DNA of 64,000 bases from Squalus acanthias (Eukaryota). Both the position numbers and the translations under genes were made by a program. The stretch covers positions 620,001 to 684,000 of the forward strand of contig JASTWF010000048.1 of NCBI GenBank assembly GCA_030390025.1, given 5' to 3'. Positions within the stretch are counted from its first letter, which is position 1; every line of letters starts with the position of its first letter. Positions 8,668 through 33,789 of the stretch are shown piece after piece. The notes below the pieces were generated by a model. It was not told the DNA's origin and searched no databases. It saw nothing but the letters and a program-made list of their open reading frames with translations.

Positions 8668-8706
8668 CACAGCGGTACGAACACGGCGCGACTCGCTGCA
8701 AAAACC
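8668..8706 (+). other. 23-RSS of V2
   Basis: cacagcg + 23 nt + gcaaaaacc. Confidence 0.93.
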
Positions 8707-12380: not shown

Positions 12381-12419
12381 CACAGCGTTTGAGAAAGCGG
12401 CTCCCCAGCTACAAAAACC
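12381..12419 (+). other. 23-RSS of V3
   Basis: cacagcg + 23 nt + acaaaaacc. Confidence 0.95.
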
Positions 12420-12456
12420 TGCAGCGGATGACTGGAAGTTCAGTGCTCATTTTCCG

Positions 12457-12470
12457 CCAGCAGGTGGCAG
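12457..12470 (+). promoter_or_regulatory. CTCF-like motif just 3' of the V3 RSS
   Basis: ccagcaggtggcag matches CCASYAGRKGGCRS. Confidence 0.6.
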
Positions 12471-13529
12471 CACTAGATGGAAGTTCAGTGCAAATTTTCT
12501 GCTACCAGGTCATTGCATCATGGAATGATCCAGTACGGAAGGAGGCTATTCGGACCATCGTGCCTGTACCGGCTCTTTGAAAGAACTATCCAATTAGTCC
12601 CACTTCCCCCTGCTCTTTCGCCATATTGCAAATTTTTCCATTCTCTTATATATTTAATTCCGTTATTAAAGTTATTCTTGAATCTGCTTCCACCGCTCTT
12701 TCAAACAATGTATTCACGATTATAACAATTTGCTGCGTAAATAAAAAATCTTCCCTCTGATTCGTTTGCCAATTACTTTAAATCTGTGATCTTTGTTTAC
12801 CGTCCCTTCTGTCATTGGAAACTGTTTCTCCTTATTTAATCGAATCAAAGCTTATATGATTTTGAACACCGCTGTCAAATTTTCGATTATGGTTCTCTGC
12901 TCTGAGGAGAACAAATTCAACTTCTCCACTCTCTCCACCTAACTTAACTTCTGCATTCCTGGTGGCAGTCGAGAGAATCTCTTCTGCGCCCTCTCTGAGG
13001 ATTTGACATTAATTTTTCTCCATTTAGTTCATATTGCAAATTGACAGCTCGATATGCAACTTGAGAACTGACGTTTCGCCACCAGATGCCAGCTCGAGAT
13101 AGATGCTCAGTGCTTATTTCCGCCACAAGTTGGCAGCACTTGTGTCATGCGCACCTTGACAATGTTGTTAGACGGTCGGCCCTTTTGTACGTGCGCTCGC
13201 GGCCTTTTTAATCGGCGTCATTGGCTGGAGGGATTGAGGCAGAACAGGTTTCAACACAGAGCAAGACTCAGCTCACGTTGCACAGTATCAGCGTTGGCTC
13301 AGTGGGTAGCACTTTCCTCTCTGAGTGAGAAGGCCATGGCTTGAAGTTCAACGCCATCGGCATGAGCCAATCATTCAGGATGACACTTCAGTGCCTGCAC
13401 TAAGGCAGTGTCGCACTGTCGGAAGGGCAGTACTGAAGGAGTGTTGCACGGTCGGAGGAGCCATCTTAAAATCGTCTGCCCTCTCGGGTGAACAAAAAAG
13501 AAGAATGAAAGAAAGACTTGCCTTTCTAT

Positions 13530-15230
13530 AGCACTGTTCAAAACGACAGGACGTCCCAAAGCGCATTACGGCCAAATAAATACATTTGAAGTATAGTCTG
13601 TTGTAACGTAGGGAACGTTAAAGTCAATTTTTGCACAGCAAGCTCCCACAAACAGCAGTAAGATACATGATTAGTCAATCTTTTTAGTGATGTTGTTTGA
13701 GGATATATATTGGCCCATGAAATCGGGGAGAATGCCCCTGCACATCCTCCAATAGTGTCCGTGGGCAGATGGGGCCTTGTTTTACGTCTCTTTCGAAAGA
13801 AGGCACCTCCGACAGTCCAGCGCTCCCTCAGTACTACCCATCTGACAGTGCATGCACCCTCAATACTGCGCCTCCGACAGTGCAACGCTCCCTCAGAACT
13901 GCCCCTCCGACAGTACAGCGCTCCCTCAGTACTACCCATCTGACAGTGCATGCACCCTCAATACTGCGCCTCCGACAGTGCAACGCTCCCACAGAACTGC
14001 CTCTCCGACAGTACAGCGCTCCCTCAGTACTGCCCTTCTGAGAGTGCAGCACTCCCTCAGTACTGACTTCTGACAGTGCTACGCTCGCTCAGACCTGCCC
14101 CTCCGGCATTGCAGCCCTCCCGCAGTACTGCCCCTCCGACAGTGAAACGTTCACTCAGTATTGCCTCTTCGAAAATGCAGCAGTCCCTCAGTACTGCCTC
14201 TCTGAGAGTGCAGTGCTCCCTCAGTACTGCCCCTCTGAAGGTGCGGCGCTACCTCATTAGTACCACTCCAACAGTGCAGCCCTCCCTCAGTACTGCCTCT
14301 CCGACAGTGCATCACTCCCTCAGTACTGCCTCTGCGACAGTGCAACGCTCCATCTGTATTGCCCCTTCCACAATGCAGCACTTCCTCAGGACTGCCCCTC
14401 CGACAGTGCAACGCTCCCTCAGTACTGGGCCTTCGAGAGCGCAGCCCTACCTCAATATTGCCCTTCCAACAGAGCAGCCCTCCCTCAGTACTGCCTCTCC
14501 GACAATGCAGCGCTCCCTCAGTACTGCAGCTCCGAGAGTGCAACACTCCCGCAGTACTGCCCCTCAGACAGTGCAACGATCCCTCAATACTGCCCCTCCG
14601 ACAGTGCAAAACTCCCTCAGTACTTCCCCTGCGACAGTGCAGCGCTCCCTCAGTACTGCTCCTCTGACAGTGAAGCGCTCCCACATTACTGGCCGTCTGA
14701 CAGTGCAGATCTCCCTCAGTACTGTCCCTCTGAAAGTGCAGCCACAACTCAGTACTGCCCCTCTGACAGTGCAGCACATCCTCAGTACAGCCGCTCCGAC
14801 AGTGCAGTGCTCGCTCAGTACTGCCCCTCCGACAGTGCAACGCTACCTCAATAATGCCCCTCCGATAGTGTAATGCTCCCTCAGTACTTCCCCTTTGACA
14901 GTGCAGCGCTGCCTCAGTACAGACCGTCTGACAGTGCAGTGCTCCCTCAGTATTGCCCCTCTGAAAGTGAAGCGTGCCCTCAGTACTGCCCCTCTGACAG
15001 TGCAGCGCTCGCTCAGTAATACCCCTCTGACAGTGCAGCGCTTCCTCAGTACTGCCCCTCTGACAGTGCAGAGCTCCCTCAGTACTGCCTCTCCGACAGA
15101 GCAGAGCTCATTCAGTACGGGTGCGTGCAGTGTCGTCTTGAGTTATGTGCTTGTGTCTCTTATGTGGGGCTCGAACCCCCAGCCTTCTGATTAAGTGTCG
15201 ACAGCACTATCTGAGACACGGCTGACACGT
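13530..15230 (-). mobile_element. Antisense SINE carrying a ~1.3-kb 33-bp minisatellite (13805-15120)
   Basis: Unit ccgacagtgcagcgctccctcagtactgcccct; tRNA-like head at ~15165-15225. Confidence 0.85.
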
Positions 15231-15311
15231 GACTTCAGTATATGACGCTTCAAATATAATCCGAGACTCCGGCGGTGGAAGGACCATTCTGTCCTTGTAC
15301 CGGTACTAAAC

Positions 15312-15863
15312 ATGCTTTGTGAAGTGTCTTATTTAATCTTGTCGATTGGTTTAATTTCTGGTAAGTTTAAACAATGCGCCAATCCACTAGCAGGAGTGTC
15401 GGTAAACAGAGGACACAGTATGAATGTGACTGAGGAAAGAGCTTGGGTGGTAGTGGGACTAATGGATAGCACTTTGAAAGAGCCGGTACAGGCAATATGG
15501 ACAGAATGGCCTTCTTCTGTACTGTATCATTCTAACAAAACAAATCTGACTCTTTCCTCCATTTGACAGAAGTATCTGCTTCGTTCGTTGACCAGTCGCC
15601 GCAAACTGTGTCCGTTGGCTCAGGAAAATCGGTCGTAATGAGATGTATCCTGAGGAACACTAACTATCGCAACATGTACTGGTACCAACAAGGGACAAGC
15701 CGGGAACTCGTTGCTCTATTCCGTTCAGCTGGGACCGGCCACGTTTCAAATTATACCTCCGGACCGTTTAAAGCCCAGAGACCCAGCGACACCGAGTTTA
15801 CTCTGGAACTCACCGGAGCCTCTCAGTCGGACACCGCCCTCTACTTCTGCGCGTGCAGTGATG
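15312..15863 (+). CDS. TRBV: TCR beta V segment V4, intact (leader 15312-15360, V exon 15570-15863)
   Basis: Leader MLCEVSYLILSIGLIS|gtaagt; VSASFVDQSP..MRC..MYWYQQ..FKAQRPS..DTALYFCACSD. Confidence 0.92.
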
Positions 15864-15902
15864 CACGGCGTGTGAAAACACCACCTCTCTGTGACAAAAA
15901 CT
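15864..15902 (+). other. 23-RSS of V4
   Basis: cacggcg + 23 nt + acaaaaact. Confidence 0.9.
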
Positions 15903-16941
15903 CCCTGAACCAGAACCAGAGGAATGCGATGGTTTCAACCGCCAGATGGTGGCGCTGTGGCCCGTCGAAACCCGCGAACACCCCGAAGGGACCCTTCCGA
16001 CCGTTCATTCATTCCCCGCAGATCGGGATGTTTCCCATTTGATCCACTAGATGCTAACTTCATGTAAACATTGTGAGAATCTGGACGTTTTTAGTTGGAG
16101 AAACCACTTCTGGTCTAACTTCCAATATTTCCATTGTAGCCGAGAATTGATCGATATTTAAAAAAAAGTTAGCTTTCATTTTGTTTGTAACATTGCTTTC
16201 CTTTCTCTCTTTCTTGCTTCTGCCTCTCTCTCTATCCATCTCTCTTCCGCTCTTGCTCTCTTTATCTCTGTCGTGTCTCTCTGTCTGTATTTCTCTCTTT
16301 CTCTCATTATCTCTCTGTTTCCCTCTATCTTGTCTCTCCAGGTGTTTTGTTCAGTCTGTCTCTCTCACTGACTCATTGTCTCTCTGTCGCTCTCATTTTT
16401 TCTACCTCCATTTCTGTGTGTCTCGTCTCTCTTTCTCTCATTCTCTCTCTGTGTTTCTATGTATGTTTATCGTCGTGTATGTCTTTCTGTCTCCCTCTGT
16501 CTTTCTCTCCCTACCTGTCTCTCTGCCTCTCTCACCCTCTCTCTCACATTCTCTCTCTTTCTCTACCTCATTTCACAATTCGTTCTGAACCTCGATCTCT
16601 ACACGGTAGCAGCGGTTTTATTACCGTCTCTAGAACCTTACATTAATTAGTTTCCTTCTAAGATCTTTCAGATCCAGATTCAGCTAGCTTTTATTTGCCG
16701 TTGTCACTTTTTAGTTTGACGCCATTATAATTTTATCAGTTCAATAAATCCGACGTATAATTGCTCTTAACCTGTTGAGTAAATATAAGCAAGAAGTTAG
16801 CACCGCAATTTGAGGAAAGTAATTTGTTACTTTCCTTTACTCTCTCTTCTGCTCCTGCCTCAGTCCCTTTCATATTCCCTGTCAACCTCTATTGTCCTCT
16901 CACGATCGATCTCCCTTAATGTTTTTAAAATAATCTTTCAG

Positions 16942-17248
16942 ATGTTCGTTCCCAACGACTCTTCGTCCAGAGCCCGTCGGCCACCGTCCATGTTCCAGGG
17001 GACGAAGCCGTGTTCTACTGCGGCATCAGGCAGGGCAATTTGAGTAACTATTGTTTGGCCTGGTACGTGCAGATCGTTGACCGCCTTGATTGGATCAGAT
17101 CAGTTGTACTTCCTGCATCTAACTACAGAAAAAGCTACTGAATTCTATTACGAGACTAAAAATAACACTTTCACTCTTTCCCTGAAAAACATTCTGGTCA
17201 GGAACAGCGGAATATATTACTGTGGGGCCAGCGAGGATGCGTACAGTG
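16942..17248 (+). pseudogene. V5 pseudogene, related to the V-delta-like V6; frameshifted, RSS destroyed
   Basis: Acceptor tttcag, then VRSQRLFVQSP..VFYCGIRQGNLSNYCLAWYVQ..LDWI, a frameshift near 17139, then NNTFTLSLKN..SGIYYCGASED; heptamer remnant tacagtg at 17242-17248. Confidence 0.85.
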
Positions 17249-17835
17249 TTCTGCGCCGAGTGTCTCACCTCCTGACTCCCCAAAGCCTTTCCACCAACTA
17301 CAAGGAAAAAGTAAGGAGTGCGATGGAATACTCCCCACTTGTCTGGATGAGTGAAGCAGCAACAACACTGAAAAAGCTCGACACCGTTCCAGGACAAAGC
17401 AGCCTGCTTGACTGGCACCCGTTCCACCACCTTAAACATTCACTCCCTCCACTACCGGCACACAGTGGCTGCAGTATGTCCCATCTACAAGATGCACAGC
17501 ACCAGCTCGCCGAGGCTTCTTCGGCAGCACCTCCCAAACTCGCGACCTCTACCTCCTAGAAGGAGAACTGCAGCAGGCGCATGTTTATACCACCACCTCC
17601 AAGTTCCCCTCCAAGTCACACACCATCCTGACTTAGAATTATATCGCTGATCCTTCATCTTCGCTTTGTCAAGATCCTGAAACTCCCTCCCTAACAGAAC
17701 TGTGCGAGTACCTTCAGCACACGGACAGCAGAGGTTCAAGTACGAGGCACACCACCACCTTTTCAAGGGTAATTAGGGAGGGACAATAAACGCTGCCCTT
17801 GCCAGCGATGCCCACATCCCAGAAACGAATTTTTA
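17249..17835 (+). mobile_element. 5'-truncated LINE (CR1/L2 group) 3' end abutting the V5 heptamer
   Basis: YK..VRSAMEYSPL.W..LKKLDT RT C-terminal motif, followed by a 3' end that recurs elsewhere in the window. Confidence 0.8.
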
Positions 17836-19340
17836 AAAAGTGTCATAAGAATTCAGGGGATCTACGCGAAAACTCTACATCGTATAAAGTCCCATTCCCC
17901 CCAACTCCTCTGTGCTCGCCGATATACTTTGGCTCCCAGTTGAGCAACGCTTCCATTTTAAAATTCTCATCCTCGTTTTCAAATCCCTGCCACCCTATCT
18001 GTGTAATCTTCTCCAACTCTACAACCCTTCTAGATATCTGCACTCCTCCTACTCGGACCTCTTGTGCATCCCCGATTTCCATCTCTCCATCATTGGCGGC
18101 CGTGACTTCAGCTGGCAAAACCATAATCTATGAAATTCTCTAATCCCTAAAACTCTCTATCTCTCTCTCCTCCTTTAAGGCACTCGTTAAATCCTACCTA
18201 TTCGACCAAGATTTATGTCACCTGTTCTAATCTATCCTTATGTGTTTCGCTGTCAGATTTTGTCTGATAACTGTGTAGTTGGTTGGGTCAGTTGGTTTTA
18301 CTACATTAACGGCGCTGCATAAATGCAATTTGTTTTTGTTGTAAAGTCATCTCCGCAAGCGTCAATAGGAAAGAACAATAACCAATAAAATTACTGAGCA
18401 AGTCTGTCTACTCAATGCTGATTACTCGAGAGTTGTTCTGTGATTGATTGATAGCTATCCACACTGAAGTTTACAACCAAAATACAGAGGAGAATTCGCC
18501 TCATCAGTCCATCTGGAGTAGCATGCATTTCTCTCGGAATTAGAATCAACAAACTTATAATTTACTGCACATTCTTCCATTTTCAATCTATTTTCTTGCC
18601 TATTGCAATGCAATTGACACCGTGTACGTTCCTACTAACTGATATATTAGTCTTAAGTATCAACACTGCAGAAAAGTGAGCGGAATATCCTGGAAATGCA
18701 GCAGTGCTTCTCCCGATCACACACCCTTTTCTCGAGGAAAGGGGTTTCGCTGCTTAATCAAAGCATCAGATTAATGCTAATTATATCGGGTCTCATGCCA
18801 GTAATAAAATAATTTGTTGTTTTATTAATGGCGACAGAAAGTAAAAGCAAGTCTAGACGTCTATGCACTTACAAGTAGGCTATCCATCGGGGACTACGAA
18901 CTTACTAACCAATCCAGGGGAGTTCTCAGCGCAGAATACCAAAGTATTGATGAAAACAATAGAGATTTATGCACCTTAAAGACAGATGCGAAGCAGTCAG
19001 ATTACTTGTCTGAACTTATCAGTTTTGCGATTACTGTCATGTGATCCTTAAGTTTCATATGCTACCACGCTAGTAGATGGCGATGTTGCACCACGTCTAT
19101 TCCAGTCTCAATGGATATTCAATAGAAGATGAGATAATTTAGGAAAATGCTATAAATATAAAATTTGACCAGGTAACTAGCAGTTCAAATGTAAACATGC
19201 TCTCTCCAAACTAGGCTATAATTCTTTGCACAAATATATTGATTCTTCTTTAGTGTCAAACGCGATGCATCCTGCTTGCTTAGCTTTGGACTGTGGAACC
19301 GTAAAGTCCTAATCTAATCCTTCTGTTAGCCTCTATCACA

Positions 19341-19902
19341 ATACCTTGAGTATTGTGTGCAGTTTTGTTCGACTTATCTGAGGAAGGATGTTCTTGCCAT
19401 GGAGAGTGTGCAGCGAAGATTCACCAGAATGATACCTGGGATGGCAGGAATGACGTACGAGGATCAATTGTCTAGATTGGGCTTATACTCGCTGGAGTTT
19501 AGAAGATTCAGAGGAGATCTCATTGAAACTTATAAAATTCTAACAGGGCTAGACAGACTGGATGCAGGAAGGATGTTCCCGATGGCGGGTGAGTCCAGAA
19601 CAAGAGGCCACAGTCTAAAGATAAGGGGTAAGTCATTTAGCACAGAGATAAGGAGGTATTTCTTCACCCAGAGAGTGGAAACCTGTGGAATTCTCTACCA
19701 CAGAAGGCAGTTGAGGCCAAGTCAGTAAATATATTCAAGAAGGAGTTAGATATATTTCTTCAGGCTAAAGGTATCAAGGGATATGGGGAGAAGGCAGGGA
19801 CAGGGTACTGAGTTTGGATGATCAGCCATGATCTCATCGAATGGCAGAGCAGGCTCGAGGGGCCGAATGGCCTACTCCTGATCCTATCTTCTATGTTTCT
19901 AT
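19341..19902 (+). mobile_element. CR1 LINE 3' fragment, absent from the duplicate copy
   Basis: ESVQRRFTRMIPG..LGLYSLEFRR.RGDLIETYKI; ctatgttt tail; empty site at ~58310. Confidence 0.88.
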
Positions 19903-21390
19903 GTAATTAGGAAAGCTAATAGAATGTTATCGTTCATTGCGAGGGTAATTGAATACAAAAGTAGGGAGGTTATGCTTCAGATATACAGGGCACTGGTGAG
20001 ACCACATCTGGAGTACTGTGTACAGTATCGGTCTCCTTATTTGAGGAAGGATGTAAATTGGTTGGAAGCATTTCAGTGAAGGTTTACTAGACTAACACTT
20101 GGAATGGACGGGTTGTCTTATGAGGAAAGTTTGAACAGGCTAGGCTTCTATCCGCTGGAGTTTAGAAGAGTAAGAGGTTACTTGATTGAAACATATAAGA
20201 TCCTGAATAGTAAGGACAGGGTGGATGTGGAGAGGATGCTTCCTCTTGTGGGAGAATCTGGAACTAGGGGTCACCGTTTAAAAATAAGGAGTCGCCCACA
20301 TAAGACAGAGATGAGGAGAATTTTTTTTCTCACAGAGTGTCGTGACCCTTTGGAACTCTCTTCCTCAGAGGGCGGTGGAAGCAGAGTCTTTGAATATTTT
20401 TAAGGCAGAGGTAGATTGATTCTTGTTAAGCAAGGGGGTGAAAGGTTATCGGGGGTAGGCGGGAAAATGGAGTAATCGGATCAGCCATGATCTTACTAAA
20501 TGGCAGAGCAGGCTCGAGGGGCCAAGTGGCCCACTTCTGCTCCTAATTCGGATGTTCGTACGTATGTTTGGATAAATGCTCATATTACAAAGATATTAAT
20601 ATTGACGTCAGTATTGTGAAGCATTTTTTACCGTTATGTTAAATGCTAAATACCTGCTAAATGATATAAATTTAAAGGGGGTGCACGGAGAGAGAGACCT
20701 GGAAGTGTTTTTGGACTAATCTTTGAAGGAGACACGACAGAACATGACACATAACCAAGCAGTTAATAAAACAGATGGTATCCTGGGCTTTATAAATAGA
20801 GTCATACAGTACAAAAGCCACCAAGTTATGCTAACCCCATATAAAACAATAGCTCGGCCCCATGTGGAGTATTATGCCCAATTCTGGGCACCACACTTTA
20901 GGAAGAACGTGAATACTTTGGAGAGGGCACAGAAGAGATTGAGAAGAATTATTCCAGGGATACGGTTACGTCGATAGACTGGGCACGCTGGTGTTGTTCC
21001 CCTTAGAGCAAAGAAGGCCGAGAGGAGGTTTGACAGAGGTTTTTAAAATCATCAAGAATTTTACAAGTGTAAATAGGGAGAGATTGTTTCCAATGGCTGA
21101 AGGGTAGATAACCAGAGGGCACAGATCTAAGGTGATTGGCCAAACAATCGTAGGCGACATGAGGAATATCTTTTTTACGCAACGAGTGCTTAGTATTTAG
21201 AATACACTGCCTGATTGGGTGGTGGATAAAGATTCAGTGGTGGCTTTCGAAAGGGAGTTGCATAAATCCTTGTAGAGGAAAAATTGCAGGGTTACGGGGA
21301 AAGCGCGGGGGAGTGCCCTTCGTGTGAATCGGCGCATACTCAATATTCCGAACGTTGTCCTCCTGCACTGTACTATTCTAATAGTCTGTG
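19903..21390 (+). mobile_element. Two further tandem CR1 LINE 3' fragments
   Basis: LVRPHLEYC and LEFRRVRG.LIETYKI motifs; ARPHVEYYAQFWAPHFRK motif. Confidence 0.85.
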
Positions 21391-22043
21391 ATGTTATACA
21401 CTCTCCTGCCCGTCCCTCTCGCGTTCAGGTTATGGCGGGAAAGGGTGGTGTATCTTCAAGGCCATCATAGTATGAGATCGGAGCGGGCTAAATGCAACAG
21501 AAAGAATGGAAGGGACAGAACGAAGGAAAGACCGATGAAAAGCAGACATAAAGAAACGTCGAATAGAAAGAAGGAAGCAAAGAAGGAAAGAAAGAAAGAA
21601 GGAATGCAAAGTGGGAAAGAAAGAAGGCAAGACAAGTCAGTAAGAAGGAGTGATTTCATAACCCAGCCCATTTCCCTAGTATTACCAAACATAAATGTTT
21701 CAGGTCTATGCGGAAAGAGCAGGGGAGTGGGACTAATTGGACAGCTCTTTCAACGATCCTGCACAGGCACGATGGGCCGAATGGTCTCCTTCTGCGCTGT
21801 AAGATGCTACGATTTGACGCTACGGTCTTCCACCTACGTACACAATTTGGCAGAAACAATGCTATCAAAGGAAATGTTTCTCATTTGTTCATACTTTTGA
21901 CATGGGTGGTCCAAGCAGACGATTGGCTGGTCAGTCCTCCCGCGTAATTCATCACCACCGGTGGCAGCACCGTTGAGGAGAGCAATTGTACTGCTGACAC
22001 GCTGTCGCTAAGTAACGCTGCCTGTCATCCCCGGGGAAGGGCG

Positions 22044-22672
22044 ATGTGTTTCTCAGCGAGAATGTTCTTAATCTTGGTCACCTTATCACTCGGACATTTG
22101 ATCTGTTGTAAGTACTATGCATTGACATATCAATTGCAAACAGTAAATGAAAGAAATTGCAAGTGGAAGTAGATTCAGTAATAACTTTCAAAATGGAATT
22201 GGATCAATACTTGAGTGCTGGGGTGGGTGGGGGTATTTGAAGGGCTGCAGGGAAGTGGGAATAACTGGAGAGCTCTTTCAAAGAGGCGGAATGGTCGGCT
22301 TCTGTGCAGTAAGATTCGACTAACAATTTTCCTTCTATGATTCTAACATATTGTCTTTGTTCAAACCTAATCCAGGGGTTCGGGCTGCACCCACTGTGGT
22401 CCAGTCTCCAGCCGCGGCCGCTATTCTACCGGGAAAGCCGCTCACTTTCATGTGCAGTTTGGAGGGAGCGAGCATGGGCAGCTACACCATGCACTGGTAC
22501 AGGCAACATGGAGAGACAATACAGTGGATTTGCAATGAGAACAGCAGGTGTGGGCCCAGTTTCGAGAATCGATTCAAAGTGCACCTCGACGCAGCAAACA
22601 ACCAGTTCACTCTGCAGCTGGAAGCCTCCGAGCTGACAGACTCTGCGACCTATTACTGTGCGGCGTATTTCG
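22044..22672 (+). CDS. V6: intact TCR V segment of atypical (V-delta/Ig-like) type (leader 22044-22107, V exon 22376-22672)
   Basis: Leader MCFSARMFLILVTLSLGHLIC|gtaagt; VRAAPTVVQSP..FMCSLEGASMGSYTMHWYRQ..WICNENSRCGPSFENRF..NNQFTLQL..DSATYYCAAYF. Confidence 0.9.
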
Positions 22673-22711
22673 CACAGCGATACAAAACTGCCGCAGACTG
22701 ATGCAAAAACC
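22673..22711 (+). other. 23-RSS of V6
   Basis: cacagcg + 23 nt + gcaaaaacc. Confidence 0.95.
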
Positions 22712-22789
22712 TTCTCACCTCCCACCGTGCGCTCTCGCCACCTGTGATCGAGCACCCTCTAGGCAGCTCACTGATGGAGCGAAATCATA

Positions 22790-23435
22790 TGGATTTCTAC
22801 GGCGCCTTTCACGACCTCTGGGCGACCCAAAACGCTTTACAACCATCGAAGTACGTTCTTTGTTGTGTGCTCGCCGTTGTAATGCAGGAAACTCTGCAGC
22901 CAATCTTTGCACTGGAAGCTGCCACAAACAGCAATGTGATAAAGACCAGATATCAATTTTGTGATATTAGTTGAGCGATAAATATTAGCCTGTACTTCCC
23001 CTCCGGCAGTGTCAGCACACACTCAGTACTTCCACTCCGACAGTGTGGCGCTCCCTCAGTACTGCCCCTCCGACATTGCAGCGCTCCCTCAGTACTGCAC
23101 CTCCCACAGTGCAGCGTTCCCTAAGTACCGCCCCTTGACAGTGCAGCACGTCCGCAGTACTGACCCTCTGACAGTGCAGCACTCCCTCAATACTGCTCCT
23201 CCGACAATTCAGCGCTCCCAAAGTACTGCCCCTTCGACAGTGCAGCGCCCCGTCTGTACAGTCCCTCCTACAGTGCAGCGCTCCCTCAGTACTGCCCTCC
23301 GACAATGCGGCGCTACCTCAGTACTGCACTGGGAGTATCAGCCCAGATATTTGTTCTTAAGTGTCTGGAGTGGGCCTCGAACCAACGACCATCTGACTCA
23401 GGGAAGAGAGAGCTACCAAATAAGCCACGGGTCAC
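22790..23435 (-). mobile_element. Antisense SINE with a 33-bp array (23020-23330)
   Basis: L2-like tail at ~22800, array, tRNA-like head at ~23370-23430. Confidence 0.8.
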
Positions 23436-24667
23436 ACAACTTGCACCAGTCCAACTTACATTTTGGGATAGAGTTGTGAAGTACCATTTGCGGCTGTGCT
23501 TTCAGCTGGCTTAGAACTGAGCTCTGGAATTCCCTCTTTCAACGTCTCCCACAATCTCTCCTCCTTTTAACCTACCTCTTTGATCAAGCTTTTAGACCCC
23601 TGTACTAATATGGTGCTCGGTGTCAAATTACGAACATACGAACAATGACGGCCAGATAAAGACCCTCTGGTCCATCGAGCCTATCCCACACAAATGCGAT
23701 CCCTTGCGTATCAGCATATGTATACTCCACCCCACCCGAAATCGTGTGATCCCCTGGGAGAGGCAAAAGAAAAGCAGATTTAAAAACTCAGGGCAATTTG
23801 TGGAACAAAATCTGGGAAATTTCTTTCCGGCCCAGCTAAGCAATCGAAACTAGTCCAGCAGCTCACTCTGGCTCTCAATTCCCTTCAGTAACTACCTTCT
23901 GTAAGAGGTGATCTCTGCCCCAGCAAGAAACAGGTCCAGCTTGAAAGAATTCAGCGACACCACACGAGATGTCAGCCTGCTCCAGAAGTCCACTATTCTT
24001 TAGGAAAAGGACCAGCCACTTACATTTGCGCTAGATATAGCATGATACAACTTATAATTATGACTGCTGGTCCTGCCTAACCTATTAATTGAAACAAACT
24101 CTCAACTGGAAAACAATCTATTCCCTTCATTATCTTATACACCTCAATCAGATCACCTGTAAGTCTATGCATCTCTAAAGTATAGAGTCCCAACTCTTAT
24201 AGCCTATCTTGTGAACTAAGGTGCTTTAAACTGGGAATTAGTCGAGAGCATCTCCCCTGCATCCATTCCAAAGCGTCAACATCACCTACCATGAGAGGAG
24301 ACGCAAATTGGACACAGTATTCCAAGTGCGTCCTGGCTAATGGATGAGTATGGCTCCTCATATAATCAGTTCCGCTATGGATACAGCCCAATAGTTTATT
24401 TGCTCGAGCGATCCCTTCATGGCATTGCGAATGGAGTTTGATAAAGCTCCTGTGAAGCGCATTGGGACGTTTTAATACGTCAAAGGCGCTATATAGATGG
24501 GTGTTGTTGTTGTTGTTGTTGTTATAGACTAATTCTTATCTACCGACTATTTTGGGTCCCGGCCCAAGACGAATTTCGGTATGTTTCAACACAGCAGGAG
24601 AACACGCATGCACTAACTCACATTCTGTACCGCAGATATAGCTTGAACGTGGCTGCGTCGTCTGGGA

Positions 24668-24677
24668 TATGATGTCA
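24668..24677 (+). promoter_or_regulatory. CRE-like V-beta promoter decamer of V7
   Basis: tatgatgtca ~120 bp before the ATG; resembles AGTGAYRTCA; conserved in the duplicate at 59007-59016. Confidence 0.55.
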
Positions 24678-24791
24678 CACCGGGGGCTCAGTTTCGGGTG
24701 CTCTCCTCGACGGCCGGTCAATAAGAATCGGAGGCACTTGTTGTGATAACACGATCATTGCAGCAATTAATCCGGCCACTTCGATCCAATT

Positions 24792-26361
24792 ATGCAAATA
24801 GATTTAATTTTATTTACTTTCCCTCTTTTCCTGCCGGGTAAGTATCCTGCGTTCAAGTAAGATTTTTTTAGAGCGATGTGCTCCATTAGACAGTCGATTT
24901 CACTAAACTAGCAGCATTAGATATGCGGCAGAGTGGGTACAAACTCGTCTTGGGCTATACCGCATTAACGCAGTTGAATATCAGGCGCAAAGCGAATAAC
25001 GGGCCGTTATTAGCGCCTGTTTTGCGCTATCGCCCAAGTTTAATTTCTAACCCACTGCTTAATATTTACTTGGTTAAATTATGAATTGGGGATCAATTGT
25101 TTATTTAGGAACAATATAGAAACAGGTTCACTAGAAATCATCTGCAAGTGTGGTTTTGCTACGGACATTTGTATAATAACAACAGGTATCATTTATATAG
25201 TGTCTTTATCATAGTAAAATGTCCCATGGTGCTTCACAGGAGAGTAAATCAGGCAAAATTTGATCCAAGCCACATAAGGAGCTATTATGACAGAAATAAA
25301 AGTACTATTTAAATAGCCACTGAAAAGAGGAGAGAGCGGTAGAGCGTTGGAGATGTTTAGGGAGGGAATTCCAAAGCTTGGGGTCTCGGCCGCTGGATGC
25401 ACTGCGGCCAATGGAGGGGAAAAGAGAGTAAGGGACGGACGAGTGGCCAGAATTGGAGGAGTGCAACGCTCTCGGGACTTGTAGGGCTGGAGGAGGCTAC
25501 AAAGATAGGGAAGGGGCGAAAGGCCAAGGCATGATTTGAACACAAAGGATGAGAATTTTATAATCGAGGCACTGCCGCACCAGGAACCAAAACAGGTCAG
25601 CGAGTCTGTGCTGCAGTGGGGATAGGGGAGCGGGACTTACTGTGAAATAGGATGATAATGACATATGATGTTGTTGGAAAATACTCCACATGTAACTGAC
25701 TTGCACTAGTCGCGGACCTGCTCCAGTTTACAACCAAATTCGGGCATCGATTTAAGACAGTTGACAAAAGAACCAGAGGGGAGATGAGGAGAAATTGCTT
25801 TTTTTTCATCTGAGCGAGTTTTGATGACCTGGAATCCACTGCCTGAAAGGGCGATGGAAGTAGTTTGAACAGTAACTTTCGAAAGGAAATTTGTTAAAGA
25901 CTTGAAAGGTAGAACATTGCAGGGCTATGGGTAAAGAGCAGCTGAGTGGGATTAATTGGATAGCTCTGCCAAAGCTCCGCCACAGGCAGGATGGGCCGAA
26001 TGGCCTCATTCTGTTCTGTCTGATTTCAATAATTCTCTTAATTTGTTTTGTTTTTTAGATTTAACACACGGATTGAGGACTCTTCAAAGTCCACTCACTC
26101 TGGTGATTGCAGAAGAGAAACTTGCAACAATAAGTTGCGATGAGCAGGATTCGACACCTCAATACATGCTCTGGTACCGCCAATCGGCTGGCCAGGGTCT
26201 CACGTTGATCGGATACATTCAAGTCGGTGGAACGGTTCATTACGAAGAGAAGGATCAAACCCGTTCTGAAATTACAGGAAACGGCGATAGAAACTCTAAT
26301 CTGAAGCTCCCCAGGGCCGCACCTGCAGACACGGCGGTCTATTACTGTGCGACGAGTGAAG
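24792..26361 (+). CDS. TRBV: TCR beta V segment V7, intact (leader 24792-24837, V exon 26059-26361)
   Basis: Leader MQIDLILFTFPLFLP|gtaagt; LTHGLRTLQSP..ISC..MLWYRQSAGQGLTLIGY..DTAVYYCATSE. Confidence 0.92.
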
Positions 26362-26400
26362 CACAGTGTTGCAGACTGGTTGAGCGCCCTGTCAAAAAAC
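26362..26400 (+). other. 23-RSS of V7
   Basis: cacagtg + 23 nt + tcaaaaaac. Confidence 0.9.
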
Positions 26401-26434
26401 CAGCCGCCCCGAAGAGTGTAGAAGGAACGAAAGA

Positions 26435-27510
26435 ACTTGCAATTATACAGCGCGTTTTACCACCTCAGGGCTTCACGAAGCGTTTCCCAGCCAATGACGC
26501 ACATTTTTTAAAGTGTGGTCACTGTTGTAATCTAAGGAAACACTGCCGCCAATTTTCCCACAAGAAGATCCCCACAAACTGCAATGAGCTCATGACCAGA
26601 TGATCTGTTGTTTTATTGATGTTTCATGTCACTAGGAAAAACTCACATGCTCTTCTTCCAAGAGTGTCCGTTCGATGTTTTACATCCACCTCAGAGAGAA
26701 GACGAGGCCTCGGTTGAACATCACATGCAAAATGGCACCTCTGACAGTGCAGCGCTCACTCAGTGTTGTCCCTCCGACAATGCAGCACTCCCTCAGTACT
26801 ACCTCTCTGACAGTGCAGCACTCCCTCAGTACTACATCTCAGACAGTGCAGCGCTCCCTCAGTACTACCTCTCTGACAGTGCAGCACTCCCTCAGTACTA
26901 CATCTCAGACAGTGCAGCGCTCCCTCAGTACTGCCCCTCGAACCGTGCGGCACTCCCTCAGGACTACCTCTCCAGCAGCGCAGCACTCCCTCAGTGCTGC
27001 CCCCCGACAGTGCAGTACTCCCTCAGTATTTCACCTCCGACAGTGCAACGCTCCCTCTGTACTACCTCTCCGACAGTGCAGCACTCCGTCAGTACTGCCC
27101 CTCCGACAGTGCAGCACTCCCTCAGTACTGCCTCTCTGACAGTCCAACGCTCCCTCAGTACTGACCCTCCGACAGTGCAGCATTCCCTCAGCGCTGCCCC
27201 TCCGACAGTGCGGCACTCCCTCAGTACTGCCCCTCCGACAGTGCAGCACTCCCTCAGTACTGCCCCTCCGACAGCGCAGCGCTCCCTCAGTACTGCCCCT
27301 CCGACAGTGCAGCGCTCCCTCAGTACTGCCCCTCCGACAGTGCAGCGCTCCCTCAGTACTGTCCCTCCGACAGTGCAGCACTCCCTTAGTACTGTCCCTC
27401 CAACAGTGCAGCGCTCCCTCAGTAAAGTCCCTCCGACAGTGCAGCGCTCCCTCAGCACTGCACCTCCGACAGTGCAGCTCTCCCTCAGTACTGCCCGTCC
27501 GACAGTGCAA
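26435..27510 (-). mobile_element. Antisense SINE with a 33-bp array (26740-27510)
   Basis: Same 33-bp unit; very homogeneous copies at ~27200-27500. Confidence 0.85.
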
Positions 27511-27554
27511 ATTTTTTACATGCATGTTACCAGATATCAAAGGTTTTACCTATC

Positions 27555-28365
27555 AGAAAAGAGAGACACCAGTCAGTGTATAGATATCTACCTGAGAGTG
27601 AGGGACTGAGAGACATCAGTCAGTTTAGAGCTATCTCTCTGAGGGAGAGGGACTGAGAGACATCAGTCAGTGCACAGATATCTCCCTGAGGCAGAGGGGC
27701 TAAGACACCAGTCAGTGTACAGATATCTTCCTGAGAGAGAGTGACGGAGAGACACCTATCAGAAAAGAGAGACACCAGTCAGTGTATATATATCTACCTG
27801 AGAGTGAGGGACTGAGAGACATCAGTCAGTGTACATATATCTCCCTGAGAGAGAGGGACTGAGAGACACCAGTCAGTGTACAGATATCTCCTTGAGGGAG
27901 AGGGACTGAGAGACGCCAGTCAGTGTACAGATATCTCCTTGAGAGAGAGGAACTGAGAGACGCCAGTCAGTGTGCAGATATCTCGCTGAGAGAGAGGGAC
28001 TGAGAGACAACAGTCAGTTTACAGATATCTTCCTGAGGGAGAGGTGACTGAGAAACACCAGTCAGTGTACAGATATCTTCCCGAGAGAGAGGGACTGAGA
28101 GCCACCAATCAGTGTACATATATCTCCCTGAGAGAGAGAGGGGACTGAGAGACACCAGTCAGGGTACAGATATCTCCCTGAGAGAGACAGGGGACTGAGA
28201 GACACCAGTCAGTGTACAGATATCTCCCTGAGAGAGAGGGACTGAGAGACACCAGTCATTGTACAGTTATCTTTATGAGGGAGAGGGGATTGAGAGACAC
28301 CTGTCAGTGTACAGATATCGCCCTGAGAGAGAGAGGGGACTGAGAGACGCCAGTCAGTGTATAGA
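27555..28365. repeat. ~42-bp minisatellite (gagagggactgagagacaccagtcagtgtacagatatctccctga)
   Basis: Direct tandem repeats. Confidence 0.9.
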
Positions 28366-28459
28366 AAATTCAATGCTGTTGTTGTCTTTAACAGTTCAAA
28401 GGCTGAATTCCATTCCTGCTGTGATAAACCAGGATAATGGATAGCCAATGTTCGGTTGA

Positions 28460-29070
28460 CTGTGTACAGTTCTGGTCTCCATAATAAAGAAAGGATACAG
28501 AAACACTGGAGAAGGTGCAAGAAAAATATTTCAAGCATGATTACCGTGAGATTTGTAACTATCTCTTTACTCAGGGAGTGGATATGATGTGGAACGCATT
28601 ATGATAAGTAGTTACAGTACACAGTTGTGGACAACATATTATAAAATGACATAAAGGCACTGGAGAATATCCAAAAAAAAGAATTACTGGAATGATAGCA
28701 GAACTGCGAGGGTACAACTAACAGGAAAGACTAAACAGGCTGGGGCTTACTTTCTCTAGAAAAGAGAAGGCTGAGGGCTGACCTGATAGAGGTCTTTAAA
28801 ATTATTAAAGCTTTCGATAAAGTGGAAACAGAGAGAGAGAGTGTTTTCACTTGTGGAGAAGAACAAAACTAGAGGCCATCAACATAAGATAGTCACCAAG
28901 AAATGAAATAGGGAATTCAGGAGAAACTTATTTACCCAGAGAGTGGCGAGAATGTGGAACTCGCTACCACAGGGAGTGGTTGAGGCGAATAGCATTGACG
29001 CATTGAAGGGAAATCTAGATGAACACTTTAGGGAGAAATGATCAGAAGGATATATTGATTGGGTGAGATG
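28460..29070 (+). mobile_element. CR1 LINE 3' fragments
   Basis: gacctgatagaggtctttaaaatt and ttacccagagagtggcgagaatgtggaactcgctaccacaggga CR1 3' motifs. Confidence 0.8.
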
Positions 29071-29167
29071 ATTGCCAGACAAAAGCAACGGAAGCGGAAG
29101 TAGCAGCTTGGGGTAGATGCCAGGGGAGTGAATACGAGAACAGATCATCTGCTGAACGCCTGACAGC

Positions 29168-30085
29168 ATGACCTCTACCGCTTTGGTGTGTTCCCTGTTC
29201 CTGCTTCTATTAGGTAAGTACATTCTCTGTGGCGGAGTACTTTCAGTTGTCAACTTACTTGTGGTGTCTCAAATTGTGGTTTTTCCTAACGCAGTTGCTC
29301 TGCTTTAGTTTGATAGCAGTCCGTATTCTAATAAGAAATGGGAGCATCACGCCGCAGTACCACCTCCAACTCAGGACAGACCGGAATAAAAGGAAGAAGT
29401 AACTTGCAATTCTATAGCGCCTTGCAGGAGCTCAGGATATTTAAAAGTGTTTACAACGTTTAAAGTGGTGTCACTGTTATAATGTAGGAAACGCGGCAGC
29501 CAATTTGCGCACAGCAAGCTCACACAAATAGCAATATGATAATGACCAGATCATCTGTTTTTCTTTAGTGATAGTGGTTGAGGGATAAATATTGGCCCAG
29601 GACAGGCCGAAGTTGATCCTGGAGTTTTCCTGGTCTGAATCGGTCGGTGCTACATCGGGCCATTTATTTACCCCAAAACCCATCGTTCAGTCAGCTTTTC
29701 TCGGATTTGATGAAACACTTGTCCCACATTTCTGATTTCAACTTGGCCCCTCTTTTCTATCCCCTTTCATTTTTGTTCTTCAGCCCCAGCTAGAAGTTCC
29801 ATCGTCCACCAGTGGGGGAGAAGGTTGTCCGTTGGAAAGGGTCAAGTGGTGGAAATGCACTGTTACCAGAACGACACCAGCAATTCATACATGTACTGGT
29901 ACCGGCAGTACAGCGGGGAAGGGTTGCAGCTCGTAGCGACCTCGGTATCCGGCAGCGAGCCAACACACGAGGATGGATTCAAAGAAAGATTTGAAGTAAA
30001 CAGACCCGATCGTAAGTCCTGCAGCCTGAAAATACTGAGCGTCGAGTCGACTGACACGGCGGCCTATTACTGCGCTACTGCACAG
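29168..30085 (+). CDS. TRBV: TCR beta V segment V8, intact (leader 29168-29213, V exon 29784-30085)
   Basis: Leader MTSTALVCSLFLLLL|gtaagt; PARSSIVHQW..EMHCYQND..MYWYRQ..EDGFKERFEVNRPD..DTAAYYCATAQ. Confidence 0.92.
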
Positions 30086-30124
30086 CACAGCGATTCAAAC
30101 AAGCGCAGAGCCGGTTCCAAAACT
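30086..30124 (+). other. 23-RSS of V8 (weak nonamer)
   Basis: cacagcg + 23 nt + tccaaaact. Confidence 0.8.
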
Positions 30125-30342
30125 GAATGTAACACCGAACATAAAGATGCCGGGACTCCCAGACCTATTGACGCTCGCTTAACGCGCACGACATTGCTCT
30201 GTCCGCTATGATAATGTTCATTTGTGTCAAACCAGTTAATTCCTTCCTGAAAACAGACGATAGGATATCATTATACTTGGGGTTACGAGTTTGTCTTTAC
30301 CAAAGCGGCTGTCATTTCATTTCAATCATCTTCTATCAGGCA

Positions 30343-30356
30343 CCACTAGGGGGAGC
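30343..30356 (+). promoter_or_regulatory. CTCF-like motif 3' of V8
   Basis: ccactagggggagc. Confidence 0.6.
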
Positions 30357-31662
30357 TCTGGTATAACAAGAGGAAGCCTGCATTGAAACTTGCAGACTCA
30401 CAGCAACAGAGGAACAGGAGTAGACCAGTTAGCCCCTCGAGTCTGTTACATAGCAATAGGAGTAGAACAGCTAGCCCCTCGAGCCTGTTACACAGGAATA
30501 GTAGACCAGTTAGCCCCTCGAGCCTGTTCCGCTATTCAATTCGATCATGGCTGATCTGTATCTTAACTGCACCTCCTCGACTTTGTTTCATGACCTTAAT
30601 AACTTTGCCGAACAAAAATCTATTAATATCATTTTTGACATTTTCAATTGACCCCCAGCCTCAACAGCTGCTTGGGGGAGACCGTTTCAGATTTCCACCA
30701 CCCTTTGTCTGAATAAGTGCTTCCTGACATCATCCCTGGACAGCCGAGCTCTAAGTTTAAGACTATTTTCCCTTTTTCTGGACATTCCCGTCGGAGGAAA
30801 TAATTTCTCTCTATTTGCGCATTCAAATCCTGTTTATCAAACATAAAAACCCCAAGATTTTATGCGAAAGTTAATTGAAGGTGCAAAGGCTATAGTGCAG
30901 AACAGCGCTAGTATCAAAAATATGAGAAAGTGTGAGCTAAATTAATATTATTTTTATTTTTATTCATTCTCGGGATATGGACGTCGCTGGCAAAATGTAT
31001 TGCCCATCCCTAGTTGCCCCTTGAGAAGGTGGTGGTAGGTCTTCTCTTGAACTCCTGCAATCCCGTGTGGTGAAGTTGCCCCCAGAGCGCTGTTCGGCAG
31101 GTTGTTCCAAGATTTTAACCCAGCTTCTCTGAAGGAAAGGCCGATTTATGTCCAAATTGGGATGGAGTGTGTGTGACCTGGAGGGGGACTTGGAGTTGAT
31201 GGTGTTTCCATGGGACCTGCTGTCGTGTTGGGTTATTAAAGCTTAGACACTGATTTCTAAATCTCGGGGAACCCCACAGTAGAAGCCCCACTGGACCAAA
31301 CCACTTCCATTCAGGCATAGAGATTACACCAGGGAAACGGGCTGGTCCAACGAGCCACCGCAAGTAATTTACCCGCCACGTCAAATAATGTTTCGCATCT
31401 CATTTACTTACCCTCTTTCTGCATCCTATAAAGACGTGGAAGGGATCCATAGCAGGACAGACCGCTCGACCTCGACCTTCATTCACAACAATCGTCTAGC
31501 CAACTGAGCCAGTTGCCCAACTCGCCCCATCGACCACCAGTCAGACACATACAATACAGACGGCAGGGAGCGGAACGTTTCATTTCTCATTCTGCTTTCG
31601 ACCAAGCCGTCTGAATATTATGTCATACAATAAGTGACGGTACAGAATTGAACCCTACTTCT

Positions 31663-31679
31663 CGTGATGTCATTTCCGG
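31663..31679 (+). promoter_or_regulatory. CRE-like decamer + ETS site of the V9 promoter
   Basis: cgtgatgtca-tttccgg ~75 bp before the ATG. Confidence 0.6.
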
Positions 31680-31744
31680 CTGTCGGTTTTAAATTCTGCT
31701 GCCTGAAATTTGTCCAATATCGAATTCAGCCCCCAGCCTGTAGG

Positions 31745-32680
31745 ATGCAGTTACACATTCTCTTCATTATCCTCTCGCCGCTGTTTCCATGTACGTATTC
31801 TCCGTTTATAACGATACTGGCGCTAAAATATATTTTCTGTTTTCATTCACTACTAACTCTGTCAATGGTATTCTCATGCCGTCGCATTACTTACTAACTG
31901 TTACTTAAACTGCGTACTTTAACTTGATAACAGAACGGAATATGATTGTGAATAATTTTGGCTTTATGAAATTCAATATTAAATAGTTTTATTACCTATA
32001 TTTTCGTAACTCGAATAAATAATTGTCTTTTTAACGGTAAATTGCCCCTAATTCTATGTCAATTTGCCTGTCTGAAATCGCTCGGCANNNNNNNNNNNNN
32101 NNNNNNNNNNNNNNNNNNNNNNNNNNNNNNNNNNNNNNNNNNNNNNNNNNNNNNNNNNNNNNNNNNNNNNNNNNNNNNNNNNNNNNNNNNNNNNNNNNNN
32201 NNNNNNNNNNNNNNNNNNNNNNNNNNNNNNNNNNNNNNNNNNNNNNNNNNNNNNNNNNNNNNNNNNNNNNNNNNNNNNNNNNNNNNNNNNNNNNNNNNNN
32301 NNNNNNNNNNNNNNNNNTCTATTTATCGCATGTTACATGATGCACTGAACTATGGAAACGTTCTCCTTATTTTTTAAGCTAAAACATTAGCAGAGGTGAT
32401 ACACCAATGGCCAAGTTCGGTGGCGGTGAATAAAAGTGAACCAGTAGAATTAAACTGTTACCAGAACGACAGCAGCAAGATTGTCATGCTGTGGTATCGG
32501 CAGTACGCCGGTCAGAGCCTTAACCTAATAGGCTATTCTCGTACTGGAATTCCAGCCACTTTGGAAGAAAACTTTGAGAAGGAGATCGAGATTGTAAGGC
32601 CCGAGGAGAAAAAGTGCATCCTGAAGATCTTCAAGGTGAAGGCTGCGGATAGAGCCGTGTATTACTGTGCAGCCAGTGAG
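31745..32680 (+). CDS. TRBV: TCR beta V segment V9, intact (leader 31745-31790, V exon 32379-32680; N-gap in the intron)
   Basis: Leader MQLHILFIILSPLFP|gtacgt; KTLAEVIHQWP..ELNCYQND..MLWYRQ..LIGYS..DRAVYYCAASE. Confidence 0.9.
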
Positions 32681-32719
32681 CACAGCGCTGCAGACTGCGC
32701 GAGTGCCAGTACAAAAACC
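32681..32719 (+). other. 23-RSS of V9
   Basis: cacagcg + 23 nt + acaaaaacc. Confidence 0.95.
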
Positions 32720-33411
32720 AACAGAGTGAACAACACAACTCACTGAATAAAAGAGCTGTGACAATGGCTAATGACTGCTCCATTCACCGGCCATTTCCAC
32801 CTGGTTACACACGATTCTTGCACGTTTAACAAGGGCAGAATGACAGGAAATAAGAGAATTTGCGAGGAAATGAGAGACAGAAAGAAAGAAACAATGAAAG
32901 TAGGAAAGAAAGAAGGACAGAAGGACAGAAAGAAGGAAAGAAAGGAAGAAAGACAGGTGTCTTAGAACCCCTGAAATATGCGATTCAATATCCTTGTCTA
33001 TGCTCTTTTCTTTCTGGCAATGAGGATATTAAAATTCAGTCGCTCTCAATGTTCTAGACTTGATCAACTAAAACGGATATATAACGATCTAAATAATGCA
33101 ATTCGTTAACGTCACCGCGATGAAGTGATATACAGGCAGTCAATGATTTAATATAAGATAGTTGGCTCTAAAATGTGTTCATTTTTTGGACAACACACCT
33201 CATTAATATTATTCTAAACTTTTAATATTTTCACCCAGATGCGCGTTTGCAGAGTTTTACGTTGTATTTTACAGCTGCGTTTTCCCAGGTGCTTGTAGGA
33301 AATTAGGAGCGAGCCTTAATTTCCATCGGTAATTTAGCGCAACTCCCACAACTATCGTCGCAAGTTTAACGGAAACGGTCCTTATTCTTTCCTCGTAATT
33401 CCTGTTTCCAG

Positions 33412-33701: not shown

Positions 33702-33789
33702 TATCGTGCTTCAGAGTCAGGTGGCACTCAGAAAAATGACCTCACACAACATGCTCTAAAACTCCTGTTAATTTACAGGGAACAGCGCA

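What the first reader, a model, noticed from the sequence alone, without database searches (positions are those of the whole stretch)
22044..22711. Intact V-delta/Ig-like V segment with a CDR2 cysteine pair embedded in a V-beta array
Seen: complete leader, splice sites, open exon and a good 23-RSS, in the same orientation as its neighbours. The sequence CSLEGASMGSYTMHWYRQ..IQWI..GPSFENRF..D..NNQFTLQL..DSATYYCAA is unlike the neighbouring V-betas. From memory it resembles the short-CDR2 V-delta clade of birds and reptiles (ASM..YYM.WYRQ..WIY..G.GF.DRF..S.N.FTL) and has VH-like features. CDR2 reads C-NENSR-C, two extra Cys placed to staple the C'-C'' hairpin. Established: shark TCR-delta uses foreign V types (IgHV, TAILV, NARTCR); I do not know of this for TCR-beta. 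Inference: this segment could join D-beta/J-beta to give a beta chain with a delta/Ig-type V domain. It is the best candidate here for an undescribed receptor type.
Basis: partly seen in the sequence, partly recalled or inferred. Interest (0 to 1): 0.75.

Follow-up and report, generated by a model that had tools for sequence, protein, structure and literature searches.

The report
Delta-2-like shark TCR-beta V family
This is an intact T-cell receptor beta gene segment of a shark with a very short second binding loop flanked by two extra cysteines that likely clamp it; it likely belongs to an ancient lineage already known in trout beta chains and related to human V-delta-2, so it is an old resident of the beta locus rather than a new receptor type.

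Summary
Observation confirmed: leader, splice sites, open V exon, 23-RSS and the C-x5-C pair are there. It is one of 17 copies (14 intact), all on one contig that is a true TRB locus with two D-J-C-beta clusters. The real TRA/D locus, with its TAILV-like genes and its own single short-CDR2 V, lies on another contig. Trees join the family and a catshark orthologue (both cysteines kept) to short-CDR2 V genes of bony-fish TRB loci (96/86, 97/93), the lineage of trout TRBV6. They also join both to a TRA/D clan that includes an opossum V matching human TRDV2 (98/92, 99/95), apart from VH. AU tests reject no rival placement. So 'delta-like' holds as deep kinship; 'foreign Ig V' and 'undescribed receptor type' are not supported. 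The disulfide is predicted only; rearrangement in this shark is not shown. The scan found the TRBV6 reading before in another genome (e1-9520397); the TRDV2 link is added here.

The parts
22044..22107 (+). Leader exon (64 nt, phase 1), signal peptide
   Evidence: among the 38 TRB V genes given a leader by a rough script, 64 nt was found only in this family
22108..22375 (+). Intron, GT...AG, 268 nt
22376..22672 (+). V exon, open; Cys23 22453-55, Cys104 22657-59; 3-residue CDR2
   Evidence: AlphaFold2 V-set fold, pLDDT 94.4
22531..22551 (+). Extra cysteine pair C-x5-C (codons 22531-33 and 22549-51) across the shortened C'-C'' hairpin; predicted disulfide
   Evidence: first Cys in 17 of 17 copies, second in 14 of 17; both in catshark P0013; model puts the first in strand C' and the second in a beta-bridge
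22673..22711 (+). 23-spacer recombination signal
2300..60320 (+). Surrounding co-oriented V-beta array (12 other V with 23-RSS); the matching D1, 34 J and C-beta1 lie outside the window, D1 about 318 kb downstream on the same contig

Best explanation
This is an intact V-beta segment, one of 17 copies in a shark TRB locus, that likely belongs to an ancient short-CDR2 lineage shared with bony-fish TRBV6 and sister to the V-delta-2 clan, and that would be joined by RAG to D-beta and J-beta to give a beta chain whose short C'-C'' hairpin is predicted to be clamped by a disulfide. Shown: gene structure, copy number, locus identity, conservation of the cysteines. Inferred: (1) the 23-RSS joins by deletion to the 12-RSS of D1 about 318 kb downstream, then to one of 34 J and C-beta1; the 12 copies on the other arm would use D2, 4 J and C-beta2, and inversional cross-use is possible; (2) an early copying of one short-CDR2 V between TRA/D and TRB, before sharks and bony fish split, left one branch in each locus (direction unknown); (3) two tyrosines that face each other across the short hairpin in the TRA/D clan were replaced by cysteines, the first probably early (also in sturgeon and paddlefish), the second in sharks, giving a cross-strand staple that stiffens a loop too short for the usual MHC-helix contact, so binding would lean on CDR1, CDR3 and the alpha chain.
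For: Locus: both D segments start with GGGACAG between a 12- and a 23-RSS; both C exons match teleost beta constant domains best (28-40%, E 6e-12 to 2e-18) and alpha/delta hardly (one hit at E 0.002), each with a Cys hinge exon candidate and a Lys-bearing TM exon; contigs of 3 of 3 runs cover the C-beta1 exon up to its donor site and go on in other letters, as a spliced transcript would. Residency: copies in both arms sit at the same place in a repeated V cassette. Kinship: family + bony-fish TRB short-CDR2 V 81/90 with 59 rows, 96/86 and 97/93 with 64 rows; whole clan 98/92 and 99/95. Sturgeon, eel, tarpon and anchovy members are fused in gene models to typical V-beta domains, and teleost members stand in proteins named TCR beta chain. 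Trout TRBV6 DNA (PMC10464911 suppl. 3, read by eye) has the same CSLGPGFSM / SYTM / EFLIKEY pattern as these teleost members, a 3-residue CDR2, and is reported in rearranged transcripts. Opossum P0150 aligns without gaps to human TRDV2, E 2e-26. In a structural second look the human Vgamma9/Vdelta2 delta chain 1hxm_A ranks 3rd (Z 15.6, rmsd 1.4, 93 aligned, 32%), tied with VH domains, the only entry titled as a TCR among 50 rows. Expression hint: in the bamboo-shark table of expressed TRBV, 1 of 29 genes with intron data has a 64-nt leader exon and 284-nt V exon like this family (TRBV18, F; PMC10322711 suppl.).
Against: AU tests reject none of the rival placements (p 0.148, 0.353, 0.438; 0.095-0.30 for five tests); only 96-98 columns. 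The 59-row tree did not recover the whole clan as a supported group, and the TRA/D side is not one clade in the mixture tree. Single-domain profile scores favour bird and holostean TRA/D members (73-91 bits) over teleost TRB members (39-70); paddlefish scores 81. Pairwise, opossum scores 83.6 bits against 77.0 for sturgeon. dN/dS among 8 paralogue pairs is 0.39-2.28, so no overall purifying signal. One intact copy (L006) has Tyr in place of the second Cys. No shark transcript joining this V to J-C-beta was found, and no S-S distance could be measured. TRBV6 was compared by eye, not placed in the tree.
Confidence: 0.7

Rival explanations
1. A true V-delta of the short-CDR2 clan was copied into TRB in the shark line alone, independently of fish TRBV6, giving hybrid delta-V/beta-C chains (closest to the first reader's idea).
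For: Profile and pairwise scores to bird, gar, bowfin and opossum TRA/D members equal or exceed those to teleost TRB members; AU does not reject family + TRA/D clan (p 0.35, 0.12); top Atlas hits are named alpha/delta/gamma V.
Against: Two 64-row trees give family + fish TRB members 96/86 and 97/93; the shark's own TRA/D member is only 37% identical and groups with a basking-shark TRA/D V at 100/99; sturgeon and paddlefish members share the first Cys and the SYTM motif.
Confidence: 0.12
2. An ordinary V-beta that lost most of CDR2 on its own; the likeness to V-delta-2 is convergence in a short alignment.
For: AU does not reject family + typical V-beta (p 0.148, 0.095) or one clade of all TRB V (p 0.247); CDR2 loss is reported in unrelated salmonid TRAV3 and bovine TRAV (PMC8559430 passages).
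Against: Clan support 98/92 and 99/95; shared Met before CDR1 (4 of 5, 13 of 13, 9 of 11 rows in the three clan groups, against 4 of 15 Thr as commonest in typical V-beta), Glu in CDR2 and Asn-x-Phe in FR3.
Confidence: 0.09
3. An Ig VH- or TAILV-derived segment placed in TRB.
For: Best non-family hits in the genome are IgH V at 36%; sequence and fold searches of solved structures are led by VH domains; Trp at the FR2 interface position as in VH; AU p 0.44 and 0.30.
Against: VH and TAILV-like genes form their own clade at 100/97-100 in three trees and keep a long CDR2; antibody chains dominate the structure library.
Confidence: 0.04
4. The family is passive: carried along by cassette duplications, rarely or never used, and the cysteine pair has no role.
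For: dN/dS near 1 among paralogues; copies 97-100% alike including flanks; 3 of 17 copies are broken or lack a found leader.
Against: 14 of 17 copies intact with good RSS; an open catshark orthologue keeps both Cys; the fish lineage is expressed; probable expressed bamboo-shark counterpart.
Confidence: 0.05

Closest known systems
Salmonid TRBV6 (trout V-beta 6; PMC10464911, passages, section 12, supplement 3 part 1; Boudinot 2002 not seen, cited there)
   Same: TRB-resident V with 3-residue CDR2 and SYTM before the conserved Trp; its teleost relatives group with the shark family.
   Different: Salmonid gene is single-copy with two extra introns and, like the teleost relatives seen, lacks the Cys pair and has a shorter C'' region; the shark family has 17 copies, normal two-exon form and C-x5-C.
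Human TRDV2 (V-delta-2) and its clan in opossum, reptiles, birds, gar, bowfin, paddlefish and shark TRA/D
   Same: Same short hairpin, Y-x5-Y where the shark has C-x5-C; opossum K7E1F2 also has C-x5-C; structural match Z 15.6, rmsd 1.4, 93 aligned.
   Different: Those genes lie in TRA/D; the shark family lies in TRB, 32-42% identical, and is a sister branch, not a member of the delta repertoire. Human TRDV2 itself was not in the tree.
Shark TAILV, IgHV-delta and NAR-TCR (PMC12227049 section 6 for the Ig/TRA-D linkage; other details recalled)
   Same: Unusual V types used with a TCR constant region in sharks.
   Different: They are VH- or NAR-type, lie at TRA/D (about 30 VH-like genes on contig C911) and form a separate clade.
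Two opposed TRB clusters of bamboo shark (PMC10322711 supplementary table) and salmonids (PMC10464911)
   Same: Two D-J-C-beta clusters in opposite orientation on one scaffold.
   Different: Here the clusters face each other tail to tail, with 34 and 4 J and constant exons only 35% identical, between V arrays of about 0.9 and 1.1 Mb.

Membership tests
TRBV (functional V-beta gene) | Lies upstream of, and co-oriented with, a D-beta/J-beta/C-beta cluster | tested here: met
TRBV (functional V-beta gene) | Leader, splice sites, open V exon with Cys23/Trp41/Cys104, 23-RSS | tested here: met
TRBV (functional V-beta gene) | Found rearranged and spliced to C-beta | tested here: inconclusive
   no holder or shark cDNA found; indirect match to an expressed bamboo-shark TRBV by exon lengths only
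Typical (long-CDR2) V-beta families | Groups with the neighbouring V-beta genes and has a full C'' loop | tested here: not met
   20-32% identity; outside them in all trees, though AU p 0.095-0.15
TRBV6-like lineage of bony fish | 3-residue CDR2 in a TRB-resident V | tested here: met
   (hand numbering); PMC10464911
TRBV6-like lineage of bony fish | Common descent with the fish genes | tested here: met
   96/86 and 97/93; weaker, 81/90; rivals not rejected; TRBV6 itself compared by eye
TRBV6-like lineage of bony fish | V exon split by two introns (salmonid form) | tested here: not met
   single V exon; this trait is described for salmonids only
TRDV (V-delta gene) | Lies in the TRA/D locus | tested here: not met
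   TRA/D is on contig C911; all 17 copies are on C3311
TRDV2 / short-CDR2 clan | Sequence kinship and short C'-C'' hairpin | tested here: met
   not recovered with support
TRDV2 / short-CDR2 clan | Pairs with a gamma chain or senses butyrophilin-dependent ligands | not testable with these tools
   no data
IgHV / TAILV | Falls in the VH clade with a long CDR2 | tested here: not met
   AU p 0.30-0.44 leaves some doubt
V domain with extra intradomain disulfide | The two cysteines are bonded | tested here: inconclusive
   model geometry consistent by secondary structure only; no distances returned
Already described shark TRBV family | Identity to a nurse, horned or bamboo shark V-beta family in print | tested here: inconclusive
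   no shark cDNA among 31 hits; motifs absent from 4 supplements of PMC5931798; key papers not held; bamboo-shark TRBV18 is a candidate

The most novel reading that the evidence does not exclude
One short-CDR2 V clan has served both the beta and the alpha/delta locus since the first jawed vertebrates, with human V-delta-2 and fish TRBV6 as its surviving arms, and marks T cells that recognise a conserved non-peptide or non-classical-MHC ligand; sharks expanded the beta arm and locked its hairpin with a disulfide, giving alpha-beta T cells with gamma-delta-like recognition.
Probability: 0.2. Interest if true: 0.8.

Novelty: new variant of a known kind. Interest (0 to 1): 0.48.

Why it matters
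It dates an odd fish V-beta (TRBV6) back to the common ancestor of sharks and bony fish, and links it to the lineage of human V-delta-2, which the review passages seen trace only to the placental ancestor (PMC7348870). That implies an early V exchange between TCR loci and a V type kept for hundreds of millions of years although it lacks the usual MHC-contact loop. It gives a concrete test: do beta chains with this V read MHC at all? The cysteine staple, also present in the opossum V-delta-2-like gene, is a simple structural handle. It is not a new receptor class.

Tried and rejected
Expression: no RNA holder listed for the V exon; contigs of 3 runs of unknown tissue do not cover it, while C-beta1 is covered at depth 8-9 only, so this blank is uninformative. 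Single-sequence homologue searches scored 0 of 3 and 0 of 208 candidates; the alignment search gave 31 hits, none a rearranged shark chain. First fold on 15 rows was poor (pLDDT 57) and was not used. Sequence searches of solved structures for C and V exons were swamped by multi-domain antibodies; C identity was settled against named teleost chains instead. The wide structure search gave VH and VL, with V-delta 1tvd_B at rank 19. Pfam PF09291 found no C-alpha; the TM-exon search found only C-beta1. AU tests could not reject any placement; a sixth planned test did not run in time. dN/dS showed no purifying signal. Ten literature searches listed no paper that describes this shark family, its Cys pair or a TRBV6-TRDV2 link; the main shark TCR-beta papers are not in the library, so this is weak. 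No complex prediction was run. Rejected: lone stray segment (17 copies); scaffold being TRA/D or TRG; recent VH/TAILV insertion.

Full report
Observation. The segment is as described: ATG 22044, 64-nt leader exon, intron 22108-22375, open V exon 22376-22672 and a 23-RSS with one mismatch in each element. The extra cysteines flank, rather than lie in, a 3-residue CDR2 (hand IMGT numbering, about 54 and 67). It is 20-32% identical to the 7 typical window V genes aligned with it.

Family. A search of the window's genome gave 17 copies at 63-100% identity, all on contig C3311: 5 on the + arm, 12 on the - arm. The next hits were IgH V at 36%. All 17 have the first Cys and 14 have the second (Tyr in L006, L012, L016). 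L012 has a stop, L014 has an acceptor one base out of frame, and no leader was found for L016, which leaves 14 intact copies, 13 with both Cys. In the stretches I fetched, copies on both arms follow the same neighbour families, so they travel in a duplicated cassette.

Locus. I fetched 200 kb from the middle of the contig. It holds two clusters facing each other: D1, 34 J, C1 on +, and D2, 4 J, C2 on -. Both D begin GGGACAG (the conserved D-beta core, recalled). Both C exons match teleost beta constant domains best and have hinge and transmembrane exons; they are 35% identical to each other. Contigs of three runs cover C1 up to its donor site and continue in other letters, as spliced RNA would (the runs are only guessed to be RNA). 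TRA/D is on contig C911, with J segments and two other C genes, about 30 VH/TAILV-like genes, and a single short-CDR2 V that is 37% identical to the finding. The window is therefore TRB, and D1 lies about 318 kb downstream in the same orientation.

Relatives. A profile of 15 copies against 1.84 billion representatives, rescored per domain, gave first a catshark protein that keeps both Cys (139 bits). Then came a set of short-CDR2 V domains from birds, gar, bowfin, paddlefish, alligator, opossum, turtle, basking shark and teleosts (names). Context splits them. Bowfin and basking-shark members stand in gene models with alpha-type constant regions, and one paddlefish member is fused to an alpha/delta-type V. 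Sturgeon, eel, tarpon, anchovy and other teleost members are fused to typical V-beta domains or stand in chains named TCR beta. Locus labels for birds, gar, alligator and turtle are inferred from the tree and from such context, not looked up. The opossum member, which also has C-x5-C, aligns without gaps to human TRDV2 (E 2e-26), where the two positions are Tyr; a bird member also has TRDV2 chains as its best TCR matches.

Trees. The first tree used 93 rows (38 of 108 genomic V domains plus 55 public domains) and finished only as a quick search. I then dropped 34 rows (long branches, near-copies, and two groups of uncertain label), leaving 59, and added 5 fish rows found later, giving 64. Family + catshark is 100/99 throughout. 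Family + fish TRB short-CDR2 genes is 81/90, then 96/86 and 97/93 (mixture model). The whole clan with the TRA/D members is 98/92 and 99/95 in the 64-row trees but unsupported in the 59-row tree. VH, including the TAILV-like genes, stays apart at 100/97-100. Against this, AU tests reject no alternative, profile and pairwise scores do not favour the fish TRB genes over TRA/D members, and only 96-98 columns are available.

Known counterpart. PMC10464911 (passages, section 12, supplement 3 part 1 of 2) describes salmonid TRBV6 as an atypical V-beta with a 3-residue CDR2, found in rearranged transcripts and involved in an antiviral response. Read by eye, its DNA encodes the same motifs as the teleost members here; it was not placed in the tree. 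PMC10322711 (passages, section 21, supplement file 16 part 1 of 5) lists expressed bamboo-shark TRBV mapped to the genome, with two opposed D-J-C clusters. One of 29 genes with intron data, TRBV18, has the 64-nt leader exon that in this shark marked only the present family among 38 V genes scored by a rough script. No sequence is given there, so this is a hint. PMC5931798 (passages, section 5, 4 supplements searched) reports six nurse-shark V-beta families; I could not see their sequences. Also seen: PMC12227049 (outline, section 6); PMC11754216, PMC8559430, PMC2275272, PMC7348870, PMC5278385, PMC13433984 (passages). Boudinot 2002 and Criscitiello 2010 were seen only as references; the latter is not held. 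Seven supplement files of PMC10322711 were not read or searched and could bear on shark TRB.

Structure. With 77 aligned V domains AlphaFold2 gave a confident V-set model (pLDDT 94.4): strand C' runs through the first Cys, a four-residue loop follows, and the second Cys forms a lone beta-bridge. In a structural second look the human V-delta-2 chain ranks third, tied with VH domains (Z 15.6, rmsd 1.4, 93 aligned). Inference from hairpin geometry (own knowledge): residues i and i+6 around a 3:5 turn, with Gly at i+4 in 13 of 17 copies, face each other at a non-hydrogen-bonded position, where cross-strand disulfides are favoured. The tools gave no atomic distances, so the bond is predicted, not shown.

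Mechanism. Most likely RAG joins this V to D1-J-C-beta1, giving a beta chain that pairs with an alpha chain and has almost no CDR2, its stump stapled by a disulfide. Contact with the ligand would then rest on CDR1, CDR3 and the alpha chain. Whether the ligand is peptide-MHC is open. dN/dS of 0.39-2.28 over 8 paralogue pairs shows no overall constraint and fits either diversification or drift.

Verdict. Real, intact and unusual, but an old TRB resident related to a described fish V-beta, not a new receptor type. New here are the full locus map, the separate TRA/D member in the same genome and the link to V-delta-2. Novelty: new variant of a known kind; interest 0.48.

Noticed in passing
G000:C3311:960540-1098961 (L022-L035): Two TRB D-J-C clusters tail to tail, with 34 and 4 J; the two constant exons are only 35% identical and the second cluster has weaker RSS nonamers. 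Two opposed clusters are also listed for bamboo shark (PMC10322711 supplement), in another arrangement.
   Followed up: partly
window 16943-17245; intact relative G000:C3311:1605353-1605646 (L057:353-646, -): A second odd V family with little or no CDR2 lies just upstream of the short-CDR2 family in both arms; the window copy is frameshifted, and no good RSS was found for the copies scanned. Long branch near the TRA/D short clan in the first tree.
   Followed up: partly
G000:C16:1496791-1545919 (L046-L051): Small separate locus: six V-beta-like V with 22-nt-spacer RSS, one J and a C1-set exon 24-29% identical to the C-beta exons; no D was looked for.
   Followed up: partly
G000:C911:362499-362792 (L110:2499-2792): Single short-CDR2 V in the shark TRA/D locus, just before the TAILV-like array, 59% identical to a basking-shark V; likely the shark member of the V-delta-2 clan.
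   Followed up: partly
P0150 (opossum, UniRef K7E1F2): A marsupial V-delta-2-like gene with the same C-x5-C pair, probably gained independently.
   Followed up: partly
G000:C3311:761242 (L002) versus the window copy: A copy with identical protein about 119 kb downstream, flanks 93-98% identical: recent segmental duplication in the + arm.
   Followed up: no
window 43499-43758: V-beta pseudogene with an in-frame stop in CDR2; V at about 38430-38728 has Trp-Asp in place of Trp-Tyr.
   Followed up: no
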